DNA of 29,395 nucleotides from an uncultured Planctomycetia bacterium (GCA_964650985.1 CAZYZC010000001.1:1-29395); one strand, 5' to 3'. Positions 2 through 29,395 are shown, numbered from the stretch's first letter. Translations and numbers: made by a program. Notes: a model not told the origin generated them from the sequence alone.

Positions 2-3000
2 TATCCGGCTTTAAGAGCCGCGAGCGTCATAGTTCCGGATTCGAAATCTACGGTGCTCTTTGCGGATGACTTCAGCGACTCGAGCCTCGTTTCCGGATAC
101 TTCGGTTATCGCAGCGGCGATATAGAAAATTTATGGCAGGTGTCAAACGGCGAGACGAGGCCGCTCGATGTGACGAACATCCCCGCATACCTCGAAAAGT
201 CGTTCAGCGTACCTCAGGGCGGTGAGTATTTCCTCTCCTTCGACTGGGGGCTCTCCGCCGGAGCCGGCAAAACGATGACTATGGAGGTATATGTTGATGG
301 GGAGCTGGAAGATAGCTATACGAGGAGCGTATCGGCAGGGGCCGACGAGTCTCCGGATGGCATAGAATTCGCCGGCGGCCACTCTTATGTAGTCAGATGG
401 ACGTACCTGAATACGGGAGCGGCGGACGGCGGTACCGCGCATATAGACAATGTAAAGTTCAGCGTCGCCGGCCGTCAGGGGACAGAAGGCTACCGGACGA
501 GCGGATTTGACGTTTCCTGGCTTTTTACAGACGGCGAAGCCAGACCGCAGGACGTAACGAACATGCCCGTATCTCTGGAAAAATACTTCAGCATACCTAG
601 TATTGGTGGTACGTATGTGCTCTCCTTCGACTGGGGGCTCTCCGCCGGAGCCGGCAAAACGATGACTATGGAGGTATATGTTGATGGGGAGCTGGAAGAT
701 AGCTACACGAGGAGCGTATCGGCAGGGGCCGACGAGTCCCTGGAAGACATAGAATTCGCCGCCGGCCACTCTTATGTCGTCAGATGGACGTACGTTAATA
801 CGGGCGCGGCGGACGGCAATACCGCGCATATAGATAATGTGGAACTTTTGGAAAAGAATCCGTACCTCATCTCAAGCGTCGATAAGTTCCTGGCCTTCAT
901 GAACAATCCGGACCTTAGCGAATCGGCAGTGTATCACCTGAGCGAAGACATAGCTCTTACCGGCTTAACCTGCGTTCCCATAGGCACTAGCGCGAACCCG
1001 TTCAGGGGCAAGTTCTATGGTAACGGCCATACGATCACAGGACTTAGCCTGGCCGGGAGCGGCAATATAGGCCTTTTCGGCTATGTTGTCGGCGCCACAA
1101 TACAGGATCTGACGCTTATAAACGTTGATATTTCCGGTACCGGTTCCTCTGGAAGCTCTGCAGGCGGCCTGGCCGGTCGAGCCTACAATGCTACCATCAG
1201 AAATTGCCATATTAACGGCGGTATTGTGAAAAACGATTGGAGTTCCGGCACGAGTTACGGAGGAGGGCTCGCCGGCTATATATATGGCACCGCAATTCAT
1301 AATTCATCCGCCGCCGGGATAACCGTGGGTTACCACGGAGTTGGGGACACCACGGTATTGATAGCCGGCGGCTTAGTCGGTTATTCCCACCAAGGCTCCA
1401 GTATTAACGCCTCATCTGCTGCCGCATGTAATGTCCGCGGCCGTGATGCCGGCGGGCTTGTGGGAGAAGTGTATTTGAGTGCCTCCATAAGCGACTCTTA
1501 CGCCACCGGAACCGTTAATGGCAGCTCCAGTGCCGGCGGGCTTTTAGGGAGGAGTGCGTCTTCGGATAATACCATAAGCCGAAGCTACGCCGCGTGCAGC
1601 GTGCCTGGCGCCGGCGGATTTGTGGGCGGATTTATAGGATATCCATATTCGAGCTCTGTTCCGGAGCTAAGCGGTACAAACTGCGGTACAAACTACTGGG
1701 ATTCTACTCTTGGCGTGGCTACCGGCCTGGGGCGCGGCTATACCAGCGCGAATCTTATCGGCAAAACAACCGACGAGATGAAGGACCCGGCAACCTATGT
1801 GGGCTGGGACTTTACGGATATATGGGTGACACCCAACGGCAGCTATCCGACTCTCGTGCCGCAGGCAGTGACGTCGCCAGGGATCCCCGAATATATCGAG
1901 CGCGGCTCGGAAGATTTCAGCGGAGCGGATATGCCGGCTACTTTCCGTAGCTTCTCCACTATGGCTACGTGGGCAGTGGACGACGGCATGGCGCAGGCGC
2001 TTGATACGACAAACGTGCCGGCGTATGTGGAAAAGGTTTTTACAGCCACTATAGGGGCTTCGTATTTTCTCAAGTTTGCCTGGGGCCTCTCTCAGGGCTC
2101 CGGCAAGTCTTTGATGATGCAGATATATGTCGACGGAGAGCTCGATCCGAGTTACACGCTGGACGCCGCCTCCGGCACGATGGAACCATTGACCGGCATC
2201 GAACTTACGGCCGGCCACTCGTACACCGTCAGGTGGACTTATATGAATACCGGTGCCTCTGACGGCGAAACAGCCTGGATAGACAACATCAGGTTCGAGG
2301 AGTATTTTCTCGCTTACTCGGAAGATTTCTCATTCGACTCTCTGCCCGACGGTTATCAGGTTAATTACAACGAATTTTGGCTGTTATCGGACGGCGAAGC
2401 CAGTCCGCAGGATATAACGAACATGCCCGTATCTCTGGAAAAATACTTCAGCGTACCTCAGGGCGGTGAGTATTTTCTCTCCTTCGACTGGGGCCTCTCC
2501 GCCGGAGACGGTAAAACGATGACTATGGAGGTATATGTCGACGGGGAGCTGGATGAAAGCTACACGAGGAGCGTGTCGGCAGGGGCCGACGAGTCCCTGA
2601 ATGACATAGAATTCGCCGCCGGCCACTCTTATGTCGTCAGATGGACGTACGTTAATACGGGCGCGGCGGACGGCAATACCGCGCATATAGATAATGTGGA
2701 ACTTTTGGAAAAGAATCCGTACCTCATCTCAAGCGTCGATAAGTTCCTGGCCTTCATGAACAATCCGGACCTTAGCGAATCGGCAGTGTATCACCTGAGC
2801 GAAGACATAGCTCTTACCGGCTTAACCTGCGTTCCCATAGGCACTAGCGCGAACCCGTTCAGGGGCAAGTTCTATGGTAACGGCCATACGATCACAGGAC
2901 TTAGCCTGGCCGGGAGCGGCAATATAGGCCTTTTCGGCTATGTTGTCGGCGCCACAATACAGGATCTGACGCTTATAAACGTTGATATTTCCGGTACCGG

Positions 3001-6000
3001 TTCCTCTGGAAGCTCTGCAGGCGGCCTGGCCGGTCGAGCCTACAATGCTACCATCAGAAATTGCCATATTAACGGCGGTATTGTGAAAAACGATTGGAGT
3101 TCCGGCACGAGTTACGGAGGAGGGCTCGCCGGCTATATATATGGCACCGCAATTCATAATTCATCCGCCGCCGGGATAACCGTGGGTTACCACGGAGTTG
3201 GGGACACCACGGTATTGATAGCCGGCGGCTTAGTCGGTTATTCCCACCAAGGCTCCAGTATTAACGCCTCATCTGCTGCCGCATGTAATGTCCGCGGCCG
3301 TGATGCCGGCGGGCTTGTGGGAGAAGTGTATTTGAGTGCCTCCATAAGCGACTCTTACGCCACCGGAACCGTTAATGGCAGCTCCAGTGCCGGCGGGCTT
3401 TTAGGGAGGAGTGCGTCTTCGGATAATACCATAAGCCGAAGCTACGCCGCGTGCAGCGTGCCTGGCGCCGGCGGATTTGTGGGCGGATTTATAGGATATC
3501 CATATTCGAGCTCTGTTCCGGAGCTAAGCGGTACAAACTGCGGTACAAACTACTGGGATTCTACTCTTGGCGTGGCTACCGGCCTGGGGCGCGGCTATAC
3601 CAGCGCGAATCTTATCGGCAAAACAACCGACGAGATGAAGGACCCGGCAACCTATGTGGGCTGGGACTTTACGGATATATGGGTGACACCCAACGGCAGC
3701 TATCCGACTCTCGTGCCGCAGGCAGTGACGTCGCCAGGGATCCCCGAATATATCGAGCGCGGCTCGGAAGATTTCAGCGGAGCGGATATGCCGGCTACTT
3801 TCCGTAGCTTCTCCACTATGGCTACGTGGGCAGTGGACGACGGCATGGCGCAGGCGCTTGATACGACAAACGTGCCGGCGTATGTGGAAAAGGTTTTTAC
3901 AGCCACTATAGGGGCTTCGTATTTTCTCAAGTTTGCCTGGGGCCTCTCTCAGGGCTCCGGCAAGTCTTTGATGATGCAGATATATGTCGACGGAGAGCTC
4001 GATCCGAGTTACACGCTGGACGCCGCCTCCGGCACGATGGAACCATTGACCGGCATCGAACTTACGGCCGGCCACTCGTACACCGTCAGGTGGACTTATA
4101 TGAATACCGGCGCCTCTGACGGCGAAACGGCCTGGATAGACGACATCAGACTAGAGTGGGTGAGCGCCCCCGTTTACTCGGAAGATTTCTCAGGGGCCTC
4201 TATGCCTGACGGCTATCAGGTTAATTACGCGGGCGGATCGTGGCTCTTATCGGACGGCGAAGCCAGGGCCGCCAACATAACGAACTCTCCGGCGGTTCTC
4301 GAAAGGTCTTTCGGTGCAGCGGCCGACGGAGCGGCGCATATTCTTTCCTTCGACTGGAGCTTATCTTCAGGGGAAGGCAAATCGGTTGAGATGCAGGTGT
4401 ATGTAGACGGCGTGCTCGATCCGAGTTACGATCTCAGCCTTGCCGCCGGAACAGGCGAAACGGTAAGAGATATCAAATTTGAGGCGGGCCATTCCTATAC
4501 GGTAAGGTGGACATACGTAAACGGCGGCGAGGCGGATGGAAACACGGCGAGCATAAGCAATATAAGTTTTGTAATGAGAGGCGTGTATATCGCGACGGCC
4601 GAGGAGTTTCTGGCGTTCGCCGGCAGTCCTGCCCTGAACGACCCCACAGCCATTTATTCCCTGGGCGGAAATATCGATTTGACAGGCCTGGGCCCCATAC
4701 TGCCGATAGGTACGGCGGCCGACCCGTTCATGGGCAGATTCTACGGCAACGGATACACGATAACAGGGCTTGCCATAACCGGCGGCGACAACACGGGGCT
4801 CTTTGGATTTACGAACGGGGCCTTGATACAGGACCTCGGCCTTGTAGACGTAATGATAACGGGCGGCGATAACACCGGCGCGTTAGCCGGAAGTTGCGAG
4901 AACTCCGAGATCTGGAACTGCTACGCCACCGGGGTTGTAACCGGCGGCGGGAGCGTCGGCGGCCTCGTAGGTTACAATCTTAACTCCAGCGTAGATGATT
5001 CTTACGCGAGGTGCGCTGTTACCGCGGCCGGAGAGCGCTCCGGCGGGCTTGTGGGCTATAACCGCTATTCCTCAATAAGTAACTCGTTTGTCACGGGCAC
5101 CGTGTCCGGCACAGACGCGGTCGGCGGCCTGGCGGGGTACAACGAGAACTCGGAGATACGCAGCTCTTTCGCCACGGGCACCGTGTCCGGCACAAACGCG
5201 GTCGGCGGACTGGCGGGGTACAGCCTGGGCAACTCGGGGATATATGAATCGTACGCCGTGTGCGCCGTAACCTCCGACGGAAATTACGCCGGCGGCCTCG
5301 CGGGGCGTAACAGCGATTCCGCTGTGCGCGGTTCGTACGCAGACGGAAGCGTCAACGGGAGTTATTACGCCGGCGGCCTTATCGGGCGCAGCGACAGGTC
5401 GGATATCAGGCATTCTTACGCCATCGGCAGGGTGAGCGGGAACAGTTACGCCGGCGGCTTTATCGGGTCTGACAGCGACTCCGTAATATACGATTCTTAC
5501 GCCGCGGGAGCAGTGGCCGGAACCAGTTATGCCGCCGGTTTTATGGGAAGCTCCGTAGGTACGGTATTCGGCGGCAACAGTTACTGGAACACTACCAAAA
5601 ACCCCGATCTTCAGGGCATATGGGGCGGGGACTCTCCCGCCAATCTGCGCGGCGTTACGGACTCAGCAATGAAGATCCCGGCTACATATCAGGGATGGGA
5701 CTTCTCAGAATTATGGCAGGCCGGCGGCGGCAGGTACCCGTTCTTTAAGAGCGCCGGCGGCTCTTTGGTAACCGTCTTGTCAGATGATTTTACCGGATCC
5801 AGCCTGCCGGACGGTTATAGGATAAGCGGCGGGGCCGTGAATCCGTATTCCGCCTACCGTGACGCCTCGTTCGAAGCGCTGCGGGAGGCCGTAGCATCGG
5901 GGGCGCCGGTTATAGCCTATCTGGAGCCCGGCCATTACGTGGCCGTGGTCGGCGTGGATGAGTTCGGCAGCGTATCCCTGATAGAGAACAACCGGCCGGT

Positions 6001-9000
6001 CGGCGTTTCGAGAACGCAGTTTGAATCCAAATGGAGCGGTATCATGCTGACTTCGTATGATGCCGCCGCTTCCGGCGCTTCCGTCATGAGCTCTTCGGAG
6101 GCGCTTGCCGTAAGAGGCGCGGGCCTCAGCATATTTAGCGGGGCTACCGCGGGCTGGACAAACCCGTCGATATATGATTTCCTTCCGCGCTTCGGGTTCG
6201 CCGGCTACGATCCGTCGGCTCTTTTGCGGGAGCTTGGCGGAAACTCAATGTACAATCAATATCGCATCACGCTTATGGTTGAGCAGAGGACGCTGCGAAA
6301 CGACGAAAGCGAGTGGGCGAGCAGGTCTTACTATACCGCCAACCCCGGCAGGCTGAACGACGAATACGGACTGTTTACGGGCATGATAGAAAACCCCCAC
6401 AAGCCTCCGGAGAGACAGTCGTTCAATAAATACGTCCGGGGCAGGGCAATTGATGACATCGATGGAATACCGAGAATAGGGTACGAAGTATCGTATTATT
6501 CGAAAGATGTAGGCGATGCCGGCAGCGAATATTCGAACGAAGCCATACATATGGAGGTACTCACGGACGCGGCCGGAGATCTGTTTTTGCAGAGCATGTG
6601 GGCGCCGACGTTCGACTGGGCCACAGACAGCTCCGACGCCGACAGCGGCACAAGGCTTTCAAGGCAGATAACCGTGCTGGATCTGGATATGGCTCCTGCC
6701 GCTCGTCCCATACCCATAAACAACGATCTTATGAGGGGCTCCTACTTTAAGGTGAGGTCTGCCCTGGCCGTATTTCAGGAACTCTCCGAGTTATATAAAT
6801 CCGGCGAGCTGTCGTGCTTTACTCAGGGCGCCGCGTCCCTGATAGGCGCCTGCGCCACCGCGATAGACGCGTTATGGGCCCGGGAGGCCGTTGTCGAAGA
6901 TTCGTTCTGGACGGGGGCCCAAAGAGAGATCGGCAGATTCGCTGGCGACCTTGATACTGCATGGAAGTCTCTCCTGCGCGGTGTGGCCGCCGATATAGCT
7001 GGAGCCGGTATCGATCTTCGGGAGGTGTCGATGGACGCGTGGATACAAGGCCGGGCCTCTTTTTCCGACTGGCCCAGCTGGTACGATGACGGCGGGGATA
7101 GCGCAATCGCGGATTATACCATAGTGCGAAATGCTTACATGTCTCAACTGACCACAAACTCTATGAAACTTGGGGATGTGCTGTTCGACGGCACCCTGTC
7201 ACTTTCCGAAAAATGGGCCAAGATAGAGTCTGCTATAAAGGGAGCGTTCAGAGAGATGACGAGATACCTGTCGGGCTGGAAGGAACGCTTCGTTAACGTA
7301 TTGACTAATAAGATAGCGGCCCTGAACGTGATGGATTTTGCGAGCACTGCCGCCGCGCATTTTCTCCAGAAGCTGATCGATGATGCCGATGCCGCTAAGG
7401 CGCGCATGACCGATGCGCTCGGGAGCGATATACTGAATCCCGGCCCCGGCCCTGGCCTGGGCCTGCCGGACGTAGACGGCGTTGCTTTATCGGACGAAAG
7501 CCGCATAACCGATCCCCTGACAGCCGTTAGAGACGCTATAGACCCATTGAAGCAAAAGCTCACGAACCTAAAGGACGATCTTATCGATAGACTCACACAA
7601 GCCCGCGATGATGCCGTTCGGGCCCTCGAAGCAGCCAGGACAAAATTTACCGAAGGTATGGACGCAGTTTTAGGATCTGTTGCCGCCGGCCTTAGCAACG
7701 TTACGAGTTATTTGAGTGCCGTGATGGGGTCGGCACGCACATTGGAAGATACAGATGTCAGGTTCAGAATAGATAGCTCTAGCGAAGGTGATGAAAGCAT
7801 GAATTCCGCCCAGCCAGCCGGCGGTTTCCAAGGGCCAAGCTATACGAGCATATCGTTTGCCGGCATAATATCTCGGCCCGGGGAGGCGTTAGCAATGATA
7901 AACGAGCAACTCAGCCGCCGGCCAGATGAGCATTTAATGTCAGTTACGGTGAGCGCCGGGCGCAGATACTACACCATTCCCGATGTGGAATACACCAGAT
8001 ATGACAACGGAAATACGCTTTATGTTTCCGCCATGGATACGACATACGGCATAACATACAAGACCGGCGGTATTACTATAAGCACGCCGGAAGGCCCTGT
8101 AGTTATCGACAGTATAGGAAGATGGCGAACCGCCGACGACGGATCCGTTCAGCTCGCTGTCGCAAAGGATATTCTGGAGTATCTGTATTACGAAAGCGGC
8201 GGCACATATACAGCTATTTGTCCCGGCGGCGCCGTTGACGACGCTTCTATACTTGACGCCAATACTTTTATAAGGGACAACATCGGGAATATATACTTGA
8301 TGGCGGCCCCGGACAGGTACATCCCGATAGGGTTCTATACCGCGGCCAACGACCAGTCATATATTCACGCGTCCTCCGGTTATGCCTATAAGCTCCGGGA
8401 AGAAAGAGTATATGACAGCTACCTAATAAATCCGACAGCCAACACCGCGGAAATTACTACTATCACCACAAATTATCAGGCGGTCGACGCGACATACACC
8501 CAGCTCGATCCCGGGGTTAGTAATACCCAGAATGTGGCGCTAGTTGAGCATTTTGATATAGTGGCTATCCCCGGTTCGGGGCCAACCACGGTGCTTTATG
8601 ACGGTGATGATGAAGACATGCCTATGAGTGAGGCGCAGATGCTGCTCCTGGACAGGCCGGACAGCCTATTCTCCCTGCCGAGCGAGGATCTAAATAGAAA
8701 TGATGTGTTTGATGAGGGCGAGGATGTAAACGTTAACGGCATTTTCGAAATAAAGCCCACCGTATATATCTCGTATGTGATATCCTGCCCCGAAACACCG
8801 GGCCCTGACTACCCCGGAACCCCAGGATATTATATTTACACGCGCATGAACAGCTTCGTTCTCAGCATAGTGGGGGTCCACGCAGGCGAACTGGAGCGGG
8901 CGCTGGCGGCTTACAACGCGGCCGTGCGCGCCATGCCAGACCTGAACGGCATATTCGACTCGATAAAAACCGCGTACACCGGCCTTGTCAACACGGTCAT

Positions 9001-27000: not shown

Positions 27001-29395
27001 ATACGCAATAGTAGATAAGCTGTTGAAAGCGGGCCTGGTAACGACAAATAGCGACGGCACGATGGCGATAGGCAGGAATAAACAGACCGCCGCGGAATTT
27101 TACGGCATTTTGCGTAAGGCCGGCATCTATTCCGAAGAAATAATCGTTCCAAGCGCCATAGAGCGGTTCATCCTATCGATAGAGAACCTCTTTAAGCGCG
27201 ACGCGTCGGCCTGGCAGAACGAAGGAGCTTTGCCAGAGGCTACAGCGCTCTTAAAGGCCGCCATCTCCGACGATAAGCTTTTCCGCAGACTGCCTCTCGG
27301 TTCGGTAGCCGAAGTCGCCTTAGGTTCGATGACGGTCATCGACGCGATAAGGGGTATAAATGAAGCGGAATTAAATACGCTGCAGCGGCTGTGGAATAAT
27401 GTCATGGGTACCTTTATGCCGCAATTCACGCACCGCTTCGTGATGTTCGGCGGCGAGCAGTGGGGCGTCAGGAACAGGCCGCTCTTCCACGCGTCGTTGA
27501 ACCTTGAGCGCATGGTAAAATCGATCGCTGAAAAGAACAACCGCATGCCTAACGCGGCAGAGATAAGTACCTTCGCTGTGCAGAATCGCATGAACGAACG
27601 TCAGGTTTATGCGCTGCTCGGCCTGGAAGGATTCACCCCTGCGCCTGTTACCAAAGCCATTGAGACCGCTAAGCCCGAAGCAGCAGATGTCAAAGATGAG
27701 ATCCGTTTAGAAGGACTTAATGTGTCGCCGTTATTGGCTGGCCTTGTCAATGATCCTGTCACGGGCAGATTCCTTTCGGAGACACTACATATAAACAGCG
27801 TGTATACATTGGATCCCGCCGTCGCGGCAGGCAAGATATGCGGATTCTGTGTGGAATCCGGGGTCAGGGCCGATGGCACGGTCACCTACAGGGTAGGTGT
27901 GACAGCCGACGCTTCGGCGGATGTAATATTCCACGAGTTACTGCATGCCTTCTGGCGCAACAAGGCATCAATAAGAGAGCACTGGAATATGAAGGGATGG
28001 GGCGAAATAGTCACACTCGACCGTGACATCAAAGATGATAGCTCTCTTAAGAGCGAGGAAGCCTTCTGCGACCTGTTTGAGTGGCAGAGTTTTGTAAAAG
28101 GCGGTATTGACGCAAAAGTCTCTCTTGAAAAACCGGGGGAACGCCTTACCAGGGCTGAAATAACCAAGCGTTCGGAAGAGATACGCAGGTTTTTCAGCGA
28201 TGTATTAGCCATGAATCCGGGTCTGGGAGAAGTTTTAAAACGCCTTAAAGATCAGGAGCCAACCACCGGTAATCGTCCCACTTTCCCGAAGTTGGAAAAT
28301 GTCGCGACTTACGCAAGCTCTTTCGGCGTCGGCGCCATGATACCGGCTTCAAGGAATATATACAGGATAGCCAGGTGGTTAGTGCAGATGCTCATATATG
28401 CCGTGCATGCCGTGCGCGCCGCCGTTAGTCAGAAGGCTATTAGCAAGTCCACCGTAGTTTCGGCCAAGCCGGTCGTTGCAGCCGCGCCGGCGGAACCGGT
28501 CTCTGCTGTAGCCGCTGCTGAAGCAAATATTGTTTCCGGCCTGACGAAGCTCGGCAGGGATGTCGGGTCGAGGGTAATTGCCATAGCTAAAAAGGTACTG
28601 CCGCACGCCATAATACTTCTTTTTATAGTTATGGTTCCGGGATTTGCTACAGCGTTCATAGTCGGCTTCAATACTACCTTTGCGATGGGCGCGGCGGCGC
28701 TGGTTGCAAGCTTCTTGGTTACTGTGCCATTAGGCCTGAAGGCAGGGGTTTTGACGGAGACGTATCTGTTCAATTATCTCAAGACCACTAAATATGTATC
28801 TGCATATAGGGAAGGGCGCAAGGTCACGCTGCATGTTACAAGAAATCTCGGATCCTTAAGGAGCGAAAGATCTCCTTTTAAGGCGATAATTGCCGATACG
28901 CTGCAGGCGGTAAGCGAAACTCTGAGCCGCATAAAGACCGATCCTAAATTTAGGAGCGTAACTTCTATCGAAGCGGTGTCCCCTCTGTTATGGATCTACG
29001 ACAGGGAAAAAGGCAGGGATTACGCCAATCCCGCGTTTGTCAAGGCATTGAGCAGGCTCGGCAGTTACCCGATAACCCCGCGTGATTCGAGCTTCCCGCT
29101 CAATTTTGTCGGCAGGTTGGCGATGCTTTCGCTTGGCGGCGTGAGCAAGATATCCTTAAAGAGCGTATTGGGCGTGTTTTCGCCCACTCCTCTTAAAGAA
29201 GGATCCCTGATAATTGACATCTCAACTCCGGAAAAACGAGCCGAGCTTGAAGAAAAGCTTGCTGTGGTGCTTAGCGCCGCGCCCGGTGTTGCGGTTGCCG
29301 ATAGAGATGCGGCTGTAATGGCGCGCATAGCCGAATCCGCCAAAGCGAAGACCGTATTCGGCCTGACGCAAGCCGGTGTGGCGGAGGCCGCGGCG
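2..29395 (+). CDS. Giant multidomain protein, partial at both ends (at least 9,798 aa): adhesin array, C39-like half domain, helical stalk, beta-rich region, hydrophobic/glycine-zipper region, SecA-family ATPase, HExxH peptidase, TM hairpin
   Basis: I translated frame +2 line by line and found no TAA/TAG/TGA. It begins YPALRAASVIVPDSKSTVLFADDF and ends KAKTVFGLTQAGVAEAAA at exactly nt 29395. Recognisable domains fall in this same frame throughout. No long + strand ORF appears in the ORF track, which is consistent with an open frame lacking a stop (inference about how the track was built). Confidence 0.96.
860..1855 (+). other. GLUG-motif beta-helix block G1
   Basis: N-cap PIGTSANPFRGKFYGNGHTITGL..GNIGLFG, six rungs of the type AGGLAG/AGGLVG...I..S.A.G.V, and C-cap KTTDEMKDPATYVGWDFTDIW..GSYPTL. 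These match the GLUG-repeat domains of surface proteins. Confidence 0.9.
2717..3712 (+). other. GLUG-motif beta-helix block G2 (copy of G1)
   Basis: Same translation as G1 at an offset of 1,857 nt. Confidence 0.9.
4583..5746 (+). other. GLUG-motif beta-helix block G3 (divergent, nine rungs)
   Basis: PIGTAADPFMGRFYGNGYTITGL..DNTGLFG, nine rungs such as SVGGLVGYNLNSSVDDSYARCAV and AVGGLAGYNENSEIRSSFATGTV, and cap MKIPATYQGWDFSELW..GRYPFF. Confidence 0.9.
5846..6049 (+). other. C-terminal half of a C39-family (papain-like) peptidase domain
   Basis: YSAYRDASFEALREAVASGAPVIAYLEPGHYVAVVGVDEFGSVSLIENNRPVGVSRTQFESKWSGIML matches the C39 pattern L....P.I......H(F/Y)VV...d....i.(D)......s..eF...WsG..L. 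His is at 5933-5935 and an acidic residue (Glu) is at 5984-5986. No catalytic Cys motif lies immediately upstream. Confidence 0.75.
6086..6121 (+). other. Internal double-glycine-type leader/cleavage motif MSSSEALAVRGA
   Basis: Aligns position by position with the C39 substrate consensus LSxxELxxIxG(G/A) and lies 12 residues after the C39-like WSGIML. Confidence 0.6.
8684..8749 (+). other. Tandem DxNxN(G/D)xxDxGE EF-hand-like calcium-binding loop motif
   Basis: EDLNRNDVFDEGEDVNVNGIFE: one 12-residue loop (D1, N3, N5, D9, E12) followed by a partial second loop. Confidence 0.5.
8873..12601 (+). other. Long Ala/Leu/Glu-rich alpha-helical (coiled-coil or helical-bundle) region
   Basis: Long runs poor in Pro and aromatic residues with heptad-like character, e.g. 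LTAAEEAYAKAAAAEKSIEEAVDAAKEHRDLIQELI and AKAAADKADAALGTALEAKKGADNVRDRI. They are broken by short non-helical inserts near 10150-10550 and 11430-11680. Confidence 0.7.
18482..20143 (+). other. Gly/Ala-rich hydrophobic region with several candidate membrane-inserting helices, including a glycine-zipper hairpin at 18827-18964
   Basis: CAVIGMFAGVILGSPIPVLGNVAGGIIGFVIGAVVGVLLGAGLSV, with further apolar segments at 19217-19294, 19475-19600 and 19781-19843. Confidence 0.75.
23522..26110 (+). other. secA: Embedded full-length SecA-family translocase ATPase (NBD1, PPXD, NBD2, HSD, HWD, IRA1); a domain of the giant protein, not a stand-alone gene
   Basis: Q-motif TPFAEQ; Walker A TGEGKT (23741-23758); motif Ia region ALMGGGVHQMVQSDFHADRD; Walker B DEVD (24095-24106); PPXD TGRDMTGQRWENGLAQAVEAKE (24533-24598); SGT (24698); motif V ATNIAGRATDI (25046-25078); motif VI ESRRIDRQADGRSARQ (25334-25381); scaffold RRAQDNID (~25592); IRA1 MDDMWVDFL...RGY (25964-26038). 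About 863 aa, similar in length to canonical SecA. Confidence 0.93.
27782..28222 (+). other. Zincin-like HExxH metallopeptidase domain
   Basis: GFCVES...YRVGVTADASADVIFHELLHAFW, with HELLH at 27932-27946. Downstream EEAFCD (28055-28072) resembles the third-ligand helix of gluzincin-type enzymes. Confidence 0.7.
28595..28738 (+). other. Predicted transmembrane hairpin
   Basis: VLPHAIILLFIVMVPGFATAFIVGFNTTFAMGAAALVASFLVTVPLGL is 48 residues with no D, E, K or R, flanked by KK upstream and K downstream. Confidence 0.7.

What the first reader, a model, noticed from the sequence alone, without database searches (positions are those of the whole stretch)
5771..6049. Half a C39 peptidase: His/acidic half present, Cys half absent, fused to the stub of a B module
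After G3, a seventh B module starts (TVLSDDFTGSSLPDGYRISGG, compare VYSEDFSGASMPDGYQV) but breaks off after about 20 aa. The sequence then switches to the second half of a C39 fold. There is no CG.A.L-type nucleophile segment nearby; the nearest upstream Cys residues lie in beta-helix rungs. Three readings are possible: (a) a split protease, with the >1,900-aa adhesin array inserted inside the C39 domain and the Cys half upstream of the window; (b) a catalytically dead leader-binding module, analogous in role to the HlyB C39-like domain; (c) a recent deletion. Option (a) would be a striking domain-insertion design that lets the adhesin cassette be exchanged within a protease loop.
Basis: partly seen in the sequence, partly recalled or inferred. 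Interest (0 to 1): 0.78.

Follow-up and report, generated by a model that had tools for sequence, protein, structure and literature searches.

The report
Protease domain split by adhesin array
In a giant surface protein of an uncultured Omnitrophota bacterium, a small self-cutting protease domain is interrupted by an inserted array of more than 2,300 residues of binding modules; its two halves lie on two contigs yet keep every catalytic residue and the cut-site motif.

Summary
Window 5834-6058 encodes only the C-terminal (His/acid) lobe of a C39-type peptidase fold, preceded by a 21-residue B-module head (5771-5833).

The missing half exists. The window is a whole contig (C1) of an Omnitrophota MAG. 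Contig C23 (minus strand) carries the complementary N-terminal lobe just before the start of the same B-B-G array. A family profile built without this gene matches C23 at positions 2-97 and C1 at 105-199. Five orthologues in other genomes have the domain in one piece with the same downstream sequence. So reading (a), a domain split by a nested array of at least 2,309 aa, is right in topology, although the C23-C1 join is inferred.

The nucleophile is Ser (motif HFG.SAF), not Cys. Across 163 copies that position is Ser 134, Cys 28. His, Glu/Asp and a downstream double-glycine-type motif (here MSSSEALAVRGA|G, 6086-6124) are near-invariant. This argues against a dead module and against a deletion.

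The "stub" equals the two strands missing from the array's first, headless B module.

This scan has already found serine-type C39 self-cleavage modules on other DNA, and C39 domains in these giant proteins are published. The huge nested insertion is the new part.

The parts
2..5770 (+). Window part of the nested array. It holds the last ~10 aa of a GLUG beta-helix (G) module, then three B-B-G units (CBM/MAM-like jelly-roll B modules plus GLUG/Peptidase_M26_N-like beta-helix G modules).
   Evidence: Translation. Pfam Glug at 1.9e-33 and Peptidase_M26_N at 1.8e-13. B-module alignment. B model with pLDDT 85 and CBM35/CBM6/MAM-like Foldseek matches.
5771..5833 (+). Orphan B-module head (TVLSDDFTGSSLPDGYRISGG). 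It corresponds to the two N-terminal beta-strands of a B module, which are exactly the part missing from the first B module of the array on contig C23.
   Evidence: Alignment of all B modules, the C23 first module and the stub. In the B model, strands E9-14 and E25-27 lie in this head.
5834..6058 (+). C-terminal (beta-sheet, His/acid) lobe of a serine-type C39-like peptidase domain.
   Evidence: Family profile positions 105-199, 56.9 bits, E 9.4e-16 genome-wide. Pfam C39 profile positions 75-128. Alignment with five contiguous orthologues.
5933..5935 (+). Codon of the catalytic His (H1978 in GHYVAVV).
   Evidence: Aligns with family column H129, which is His in 163 of 164 copies.
5984..5986 (+). 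Codon of the catalytic acid (E1995 in SLIENN).
   Evidence: Aligns with family column 145, which is Glu in 85 and Asp in 76 of 165 copies.
6086..6124 (+). Double-glycine-type leader-like motif in cis, MSSSEALAVRGA|G. The predicted scissile bond lies between nt 6121 and 6122.
   Evidence: Family columns 191-194 read [IV][RK]G[AS], with Gly in 154 of 154 copies. The pattern matches the leader positions -12, -7, -4, -2 and -1 used by LahT (PMC6363468). The equivalent segment of the paralogue model has pLDDT 97 over residues 181-190.

Best explanation
Window 5834-6058 is the His/acid lobe of a C39-type (papain-fold, double-glycine) peptidase domain. The domain belongs to a giant protein of more than 14,500 aa from a lake-water Candidatus Omnitrophota bacterium. 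Its nucleophile lobe is encoded on another contig of the same bin (C23, minus strand, nt 1396-1097). It is followed there at once by the beginning of the same B-B-G array that fills window 2-5770. The ~170-aa protease domain is therefore interrupted by a nested array of carbohydrate-binding-like jelly rolls and GLUG beta-helices. The insertion sits in the loop between the last helix of the helical lobe and the first strand of the sheet lobe. At least 2,309 aa of the array are observed, and about 2,500 or more are likely. The array is a phase-shifted excerpt of a tandem repeat. It starts with a B module that lacks its two N-terminal strands and ends with exactly those two strands (the 'stub', 5771-5833). 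Inferred: the stub completes the first module, closing the array into a loop and bringing the two protease lobes together. The domain belongs to a large Omnitrophota family in which the C39 nucleophile is Ser (motif HFG.SAF), sometimes Cys. His and Glu/Asp are retained, and a double-glycine-type motif follows about 20-25 residues downstream. Inferred: the reassembled domain cuts its own chain after ...AVRGA (between nt 6121 and 6122). That would separate the N-terminal adhesin-bearing part from the remaining ~7,700 aa, which carry membrane segments and a SecA-like motor. Shown here: the complementary halves, contiguous orthologues, the fold of the paralogue, residue conservation, and a real junction. 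Inferred: C23-C1 continuity, catalysis by Ser, cis cleavage, and the strand clasp.
For: - The window is the whole of contig C1.
- In the six-frame translation of the bin, the family profile A3 (built without this gene) hits only three places: C38 (a complete domain), C23 at profile 2-97 (58.7 bits, E 2.7e-16) and C1 at profile 105-199 (56.9 bits, E 9.4e-16). The same split appears with a single-protein query.
- C23(-) ends inside a G module and C1 begins at the end of a G module. Their modules are 45-59% identical.
- Five orthologues (G043, G002, G015, G048, G024) have the domain in one piece, followed by the same downstream region as the window. In G024 the best matches to the C23 half and to the C1 half are adjacent on one contig.
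- Independent runs span the junction.
- The AF2 model of the contiguous paralogue has pLDDT 88.4 and pTM 0.83. It matches LahT150, PCAT1 and ComA peptidase domains at Z 12.8-13.4, rmsd 2.2-2.4, over 121-122 residues. The start offsets (model residue 34 = LahT 22, ComA 12, PCAT1 16) put Ser39 on LahT Cys27 and ComA Cys17 (residue numbers from PMC6363468 and PMC10630487).
- hhalign against Cys-type C39 domains of the same phylum gives the same register.
- Census of 163 copies: position 39 is Ser 134, Cys 28; Ala40 160; His129 163 of 164; position 145 is Glu 85, Asp 76; Gly193 154 of 154. Orthologue G015 has Cys at that very position.
- His at -4 occurs in the Ser type (HFG.S motifs) and is N, Y or another residue in 27 of 28 Cys-type copies.
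- Of the 150 representatives, 11 carry nested LamG-like or beta-propeller-like inserts of 80-440 aa at another loop, and three more have breaks of about 20-30 aa. All keep Ser, His, acid and G[AS].
- The B-module head forms two strands of the jelly roll.
Against: - C23 and C1 are not physically joined. No 55-nt overlap links them to each other or to another contig of the 62%-complete bin. No other assembly with the same junction was found.
- The B module occurs in none of 400 other genomes of the class. The same-genus genome G001 has no copy of the gene. The insertion may therefore be recent, and nothing shows purifying selection on the halves since it happened.
- No serine-type C39 has been shown to be active, and Ser for Cys in papain folds can mean a pseudo-enzyme (my own knowledge).
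- I could not co-fold the halves or inspect model coordinates. Reassembly, the Ser-His geometry and docking of the motif are untested.
- The window half alone is below Pfam's cut-off.
Confidence: 0.7

Rival explanations
1. The domain is split but dead. A recent insertion of a foreign adhesin array destroyed the self-cleavage domain. The two halves are relics that have not yet decayed, so the protein is no longer cut here.
For: The B module is found only in this genome among 401 of the class. The same-genus genome lacks the gene. No relative shares this insertion point.
Against: All catalytic residues, the HFG.SAF motif and the full GG-type motif are intact in both halves. The ends of the array are phase-complementary, which a random disruptive insertion would not need. 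B modules within the array are only 44-59% identical, which suggests age, unless the array was imported already diversified. Family members with other nested inserts keep all catalytic residues across deep divergence.
Confidence: 0.15
2. It is a non-catalytic leader-binding module, like the HlyB C39-like domain. The fold only holds the adjacent leader-like segment, as a tether or chaperone, without cutting it.
For: There is no Cys. The HlyB CLD (3zua) matches the paralogue model as well as true peptidases do, at Z 12.7. No biochemical evidence exists for a Ser-type C39.
Against: The nucleophile position takes only Ser or Cys in 162 of 163 copies. His and Glu/Asp are kept in more than 97% of copies. 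A co-varying His at -4 is specific to the Ser type. Cys-type C39 domains in large ORFs of the phylum carry a textbook ELVSIKGG in the same cis position.
Confidence: 0.1
3. The two half-domains belong to two different genes or strains (mis-binning or mis-assembly), and there is no single split domain.
For: There is a contig gap, and the bin is 62% complete with 232 contigs. No overlap was found.
Against: There is exactly one orphan N half and one orphan C half in the bin, with complementary profile ranges 2-97 and 105-199. Both are of the orthologue type rather than the C38 paralogue type. Both abut the same rare B-B-G array, found in no other genome searched. A missing head at one end matches a spare head at the other. 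The junction in the window is reproduced in independent runs.
Confidence: 0.05

Closest known systems
Peptidase C39 domains of PCAT/AMS ABC exporters (LahT150 6mpz, PCAT1, ComA 3k8u; Pfam PF03412)
   Same: The contiguous paralogue has the same papain-like fold (Z 12.8-13.4). His and acid sit in the same positions, with the same His-to-acid spacing of 16. The recognition motif is of the LSxxELxxIxGG type, with hydrophobic -4/-7/-12 and G at -2.
   Different: The nucleophile is Ser (HFG.SAF) instead of Cys. The domain is not fused to an ABC transporter but embedded in a giant protein. The substrate motif lies in cis, C-terminal to the domain. Here the fold is interrupted by an array of at least 2,309 aa. 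The window half is below the Pfam cut-off.
C39 peptidase domains of giant Omnitrophota proteins (West-Roberts et al. 2023, bioRxiv 10.1101/2023.11.21.568195) and the serine-type C39 self-cleavage modules noted earlier in this scan
   Same: Same phylum, same protein class (SecA-like domain, membrane segments) and same proposed role in autoproteolysis. The same Ser-type motif and cis GG motif appear in earlier scan reports on other DNA.
   Different: The preprint gives no nucleophile, no cleavage site and no split domains; it says cleavage points are unknown. None of the earlier scan notes retrieved describes an adhesin array nested inside the domain.
HlyB-type C39-like domain (CLD, 3zua)
   Same: Same fold (Z 12.7) and no catalytic Cys.
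   Different: According to Lecher et al. 2012 (cited; details from my own knowledge), the CLD replaces Cys with a non-nucleophilic residue and binds RTX substrates without cutting. Here the position is Ser or Cys with an intact His and acid, and a GG-type motif follows.
Nested domain insertions in the same family (LamG-like or YVTN beta-propeller-like inserts)
   Same: A binding domain is inserted in a surface loop of the serine-type C39 domain, and all catalytic residues are retained.
   Different: Those inserts are single domains of 250-440 aa, in the loop before the His strand (profile ~116). The window gene has a multi-domain array about 8-10 times larger in a different loop (profile ~97-104), closed, if at all, by a swapped strand pair.

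Membership tests
Peptidase C39 (Pfam PF03412 / MEROPS C39) | Score above Pfam's gathering cut-off (22 bits) | tested here: not met
   The window half scores 19.1 bits over profile 75-128 only, or 18.6 bits. The contiguous paralogue on C38 passes with 35.6 bits, but over profile 44-128 only.
Peptidase C39 (Pfam PF03412 / MEROPS C39) | Papain-like C39 fold | tested here: met
   Tested on the contiguous paralogue, not on the split copy. The model has pLDDT 88.4. LahT150 gives Z 13.4, PCAT1 Z 13.1 and ComA Z 12.8, with rmsd 2.2-2.4 over 121-122 residues. The split copy is tied to it by the family profile.
Peptidase C39 (Pfam PF03412 / MEROPS C39) | Catalytic Cys at the N-terminus of helix 1 | tested here: not met
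   The position is Ser in the gene's N half on C23 (HFGFSAF) and in 134 of 163 family copies; it is Cys in 28. The register comes from hhalign and from structural offsets to Cys27 of LahT and Cys17 of ComA.
Peptidase C39 (Pfam PF03412 / MEROPS C39) | Catalytic His and Asp on adjacent strands | tested here: met
   H1978 (nt 5933-5935) and E1995 (nt 5984-5986) align with columns that are His in 163 of 164 and Glu/Asp in 161 of 165 copies.
Peptidase C39 (Pfam PF03412 / MEROPS C39) | Cleaves after a double-glycine-type leader motif | not testable with these tools
   The motif MSSSEALAVRGA|G is present in cis, and [IV][RK]G[AS] is invariant in the family. Cleavage itself needs an experiment.
Peptidase C39 (Pfam PF03412 / MEROPS C39) | N-terminal fusion to an ABC exporter (PCAT/AMS) | tested here: not met
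   Pfam finds no ABC transmembrane or ATPase domain in the 9,798 aa of the window. It finds Glug, Peptidase_M26_N and SecA domains only.
HlyB-type C39-like domain (non-catalytic) | Nucleophile replaced by a non-nucleophilic residue, with loss of the catalytic constellation | tested here: not met
   Only Ser or Cys occupies the position in 162 of 163 copies, and His and acid are retained.
Omnitrophota serine-type C39 self-cleavage module | Q..HFG.SAF nucleophile helix, His, Glu/Asp, W.G, and [IV][RK]G[AS] about 20-25 aa downstream | tested here: met
   All of these are present, but divided between C23 (QPSHFGFSAF) and the window (GHYVAVV, LIENN, KWSG, AVRGA).
Nested (split) domain | Two complementary, non-overlapping halves of one domain flanking the insert on one polypeptide | tested here: inconclusive
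   Complementarity is shown: profile 2-97 on C23 and 105-199 on C1, with one of each in the bin. Orthologues are contiguous. Continuity across the contig gap is not shown.

The most novel reading that the evidence does not exclude
The array closes on itself. The two-strand head at its far end (window 5771-5833) completes the headless first B module about 2,500 residues upstream. The two lobes of the protease then meet, and the chain is cut at RGA|G, only after the whole adhesin array has been made, exported and folded. That would be a built-in folding or export checkpoint. It would also be by far the largest nested insertion tolerated by a small enzyme domain, and it would allow binding cassettes to be exchanged inside a protease loop.
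Probability: 0.25. Interest if true: 0.85.

Novelty: new variant of a known kind. Interest (0 to 1): 0.62.

Why it matters
Whether and where giant Omnitrophota proteins (tens of thousands of residues) are cut into working pieces is an open question. The 2023 preprint says that cleavage points are unknown.

The serine-type C39 module with its cis double-glycine motif gives a precise, testable cut site; this scan has noted that before on other DNA. This locus adds two things:

- The module is a recurrent host for nested binding domains.
- In one case it appears to tolerate a multi-domain array of about 2,500 aa placed between its two catalytic lobes.

If the halves do reassemble, this is an extreme natural case of split-enzyme complementation, possibly coupling self-cleavage to completion of the adhesin. 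It would also be a natural template for insertion-tolerant protease scaffolds.

Tried and rejected
- **Search for the same junction elsewhere.** The metagenome-contig scan with window 5771-6430 found only three distant relatives at 31-34% identity.
- **Joining C23 to C1.** No 55-nt end overlap exists with each other or with any other contig. Only C1's 3' end overlaps, with C147. The B-G query hits no other contig of the bin.
- **Same-genus genome G001** (91% complete). It gave no match to either half, so the insertion cannot be dated.
- **Genome-contig scan with alignment A3.** It failed for lack of a conserved stretch. It was repeated with A1, which served only to name the relatives as Candidatus Omnitrophota.
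- **A canonical Cys-type C39 in the own bin.** None was found.
- **My first guess that Phe36 replaces the Cys** (aligning FG with CG). Rejected: hhalign, three structural offsets and the Ser/Cys interchange all place Ser39 at the nucleophile position.
- **Co-folding the two halves, or the headless B1 with the stub.** Model coordinates cannot be read either, so Ser-His distances and docking of the motif were not measured.
- **Literature search** for self-cleaving or serine C39 domains. It found only the polymorphic-toxin Tox-PL-C39 class and the Omnitrophota preprints.
Full report
**What the window is.** The 29,395-base window is one open reading frame of 9,798 codons, open at both ends. It is the whole of contig C1 of a metagenome-assembled genome: 232 contigs, 1.40 Mb, 62% complete. 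Relatives found with a family alignment are named Candidatus Omnitrophota MAGs. The DNA occurs in lake-water metagenomes. Pfam finds GLUG and Peptidase_M26_N repeats in the first 1,900 residues and a SecA-like domain set near residue 7,850. This is the giant-protein class described for Omnitrophota by West-Roberts et al. 2023, who already report C39 peptidase domains in such proteins, propose autoproteolysis, and state that cleavage points are unknown. The 3' end of C1 overlaps contig C147 by 55 nt and the gene ends there.

**The observation.** Residues 1924-1944 (nt 5771-5833) align with the first ~20 residues of the six complete B modules, and then the sequence leaves the B alignment. From nt 5834 on, Pfam Peptidase_C39 matches only profile positions 75-128 of 133, below its cut-off (E 1.2e-3, 19.1 bits). 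That hit alone is weak. A profile of 21 related Omnitrophota domains, built without this gene, matches residues 1955-2045 at positions 105-199 with 56.9 bits, E 9.4e-16 against all six frames of the bin. The window has no nucleophile segment. Logan contigs of independent lake-water runs cover the junction without a difference (X3 5755-6063, X4 5551-5827), so it is not an assembly chimera.

**Where the other half is.** A tblastn of the array against the bin finds only one other contig, C23. On its minus strand C23 is a 3,879-codon open frame that ends, at the contig end, inside a G module after a headless B and a full B. Just before that array lies ...AYLNGQPSHFGFSAFNVIAMIL.... A third contig, C38, carries a contiguous paralogue of the domain that passes Pfam's C39 cut-off (35.6 bits).

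- Used as a query, the paralogue's residues 23-83 hit C23 and its residues 108-198 hit the window.
- With the family profile, the whole bin contains exactly three matches: C38 (complete), C23 at positions 2-97 (58.7 bits) and C1 at positions 105-199.
- Five orthologues in other genomes (ORFs of 1,532 to 10,747 codons) have the domain in one piece, followed by the same downstream sequence as the window.
- An alignment shows the C23 piece stopping, and the window piece resuming, at the same loop.
- In G024 the best matches to the two halves are adjacent on one contig.

The domain is therefore split by the array: 365 aa on C23, an unassembled gap, and 1,944 aa in the window. That is at least 2,309 aa, and about 2,500 if the gap holds only the rest of one G module. 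The join itself is inferred. No overlap or bridging assembly was found.

**The fold and the nucleophile.** The AlphaFold model of the contiguous paralogue is confident (pLDDT 88.4, pTM 0.83). It aligns with LahT150, PCAT1 and ComA peptidase domains at Z 12.8-13.4 (rmsd 2.2-2.4, 121-122 residues) and with the HlyB C39-like domain at Z 12.7. The aligned ranges start at model residue 34, equal to LahT 22, ComA 12 and PCAT1 16. This puts the family's conserved Ser39 on LahT Cys27 and ComA Cys17 (residue numbers from PMC6363468 and PMC10630487). A profile-profile alignment with Cys-type C39 domains of the same phylum gives the same register (96% probability).

A profile search of 1.84 billion representatives found 1,103 hits. 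In 163 domain copies from the best 150:

| Position | Residues |
|---|---|
| 39 (nucleophile) | Ser 134, Cys 28, Val 1 |
| 40 | Ala 160 |
| 129 | His 163 of 164 |
| 145 | Glu 85, Asp 76 |

One orthologue (G015) has Cys at exactly this place. Ser-type copies have His four residues earlier (HFG.S), whereas 27 of 28 Cys-type copies have N, Y or another residue there. This pattern fits a working catalytic centre that uses Ser or Cys, not a dead binding module. Activity of a Ser-type C39 has not been shown by anyone.

**The cis motif.** About 20-25 residues after the domain, the family has [IV]-[RK]-G-[AS], with Gly in 154 of 154 copies. It is preceded by a helix with the spacing of a double-glycine leader. 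In the window this reads MSSSEALAVRGA|G (nt 6086-6124). Met-12, Ala-7, Val-4, Gly-2 and Ala-1 occupy the positions that LahT reads with hydrophobic pockets for -4, -7 and -12. In the paralogue model the equivalent helix has pLDDT 97. Cys-type C39 domains in large ORFs of the phylum carry ...YDELVSIKGG in the same place. My census agrees with them.

**The stub and the insertion.** The first B module on C23 begins at SWQTVGG..., which aligns with position ~34 of complete modules. It lacks the head. The window's stub is that head and nothing more. In the B-module model (pLDDT 85), the head forms two strands (E9-14, E25-27) of a CBM35/CBM6/MAM-like jelly roll. The array is therefore a phase-shifted excerpt of a tandem repeat: body...head. 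A nested insert needs its two ends close together, so I infer that the stub completes the first module and closes the array. This is untested.

The insertion point (profile ~97-104) lies between helix 87-96 and strand 102-105 of the model. That is where the chain passes from the helical lobe carrying the nucleophile to the sheet lobe carrying His and the acid.

Nested inserts recur in this family. Among the 150 representatives:

- 11 carry inserts of 80-440 aa in the loop before the His strand (profile ~116). Five are LamG-like (250-260 aa), five are YVTN beta-propeller-like (310-440 aa), and one 80-aa insert is unassigned. One of the LamG-bearing proteins carries a second LamG-like insert after the acid.
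- Three more have breaks of only about 20-30 aa, one at that loop and two at profile ~138.
- All of them retain Ser, His, the acid and G[AS].

The window case differs in loop, size and multi-domain nature. Its B module was found in none of 400 other genomes of the class.

**Most likely mechanism.** The two lobes reassemble into one serine-type C39 domain, and the adjacent leader-like helix docks in its groove. The chain is then cut after Ala2040, separating the N-terminal part with the adhesin-like array from the C-terminal ~7,700 residues plus the tail on C147.

- Shown: complementary halves, contiguous orthologues, the fold of the paralogue, conservation of the catalytic and motif residues, and a real junction.
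- Inferred: continuity of C23 and C1, reassembly, catalysis by Ser, the site of cleavage and the strand clasp.

The main rival is that a recent insertion killed the domain and the halves are relics. The lineage-specific array fits that view; the intact residues and phase-complementary ends argue against it.

**Verdict.** Its reading (a) is right in topology but wrong about the Cys motif. Reading (b) is disfavoured and (c) is refuted. C39 domains in these proteins are published, and the serine-type self-cleavage module was already found by this scan. The new element is a nested multi-domain array of about 2,500 aa inside that domain, together with the finding that the domain is a recurrent host for nested binding domains. 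I rate this a new variant of a known kind, of moderate to high interest. The contig gap and the absence of any biochemical evidence limit the rating.

Noticed in passing
window 29341-29395 and contig C147 of the same bin: The last 55 nt of the window are identical to the first 55 nt of contig C147. The reading frame continues there for about 845 more codons to a stop. With C23 (3,879 codons, still open at its 5' end), the gene exceeds 14,500 codons.
   Followed up: partly
L038 (G082:C24) and L042 (G149:C12), locus nt ~1411-1920: Cys-type C39 domains (NNTCGPYAL...) inside ORFs of 2,082 and 1,628 codons of other Omnitrophota are followed on the same chain by a textbook double-glycine motif, ...YDELVSIKGG. 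This is the Cys counterpart of the serine-type cis arrangement.
   Followed up: partly
Representative proteins P0064, P0079, P0087, P0095, P0100, P0101, P0102, P0104, P0117, P0142: The serine-type C39 domain is split in these proteins by nested LamG-like (250-260 aa) or YVTN beta-propeller-like (310-440 aa) domains in the loop before the His strand. P0100 carries two LamG-like inserts. All keep the catalytic residues.
   Followed up: partly
Family alignment columns 35-39: His at -4 from the nucleophile (HFG.S) goes with Ser. Cys-type copies read N-V-I-N-C-A or similar, and only one Cys-type copy keeps the His. This may be an adaptation that activates the Ser.
   Followed up: no
Contig C38 (L002) nt ~5630-6400 and the ORF end near nt 8180: In the paralogue, the predicted cut site IKGS|C is followed at once by a long Gly-rich hydrophobic stretch (membrane-like). 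The ORF ends with a segment holding a Cys/His pattern reminiscent of a small papain-like amidase. Neither was examined.
   Followed up: no
window 143-829 vs 2384-2686 and 965-1300 vs 2822-3157 (minus-strand ORF list): Chance ORFs on the minus strand recur at an offset of 1,857 nt, which reflects the near-identical B-B-G units 1 and 2. This repeat probably explains why the assembly breaks in the array.
   Followed up: no
window 1877-3733 (one B-B-G unit): Database homologues cover only about 54% of the unit, the GLUG beta-helix part. They come from many phyla (Bacteroidota, Planctomycetota, Firmicutes). The B module is much rarer, and its source is unknown.
   Followed up: partly
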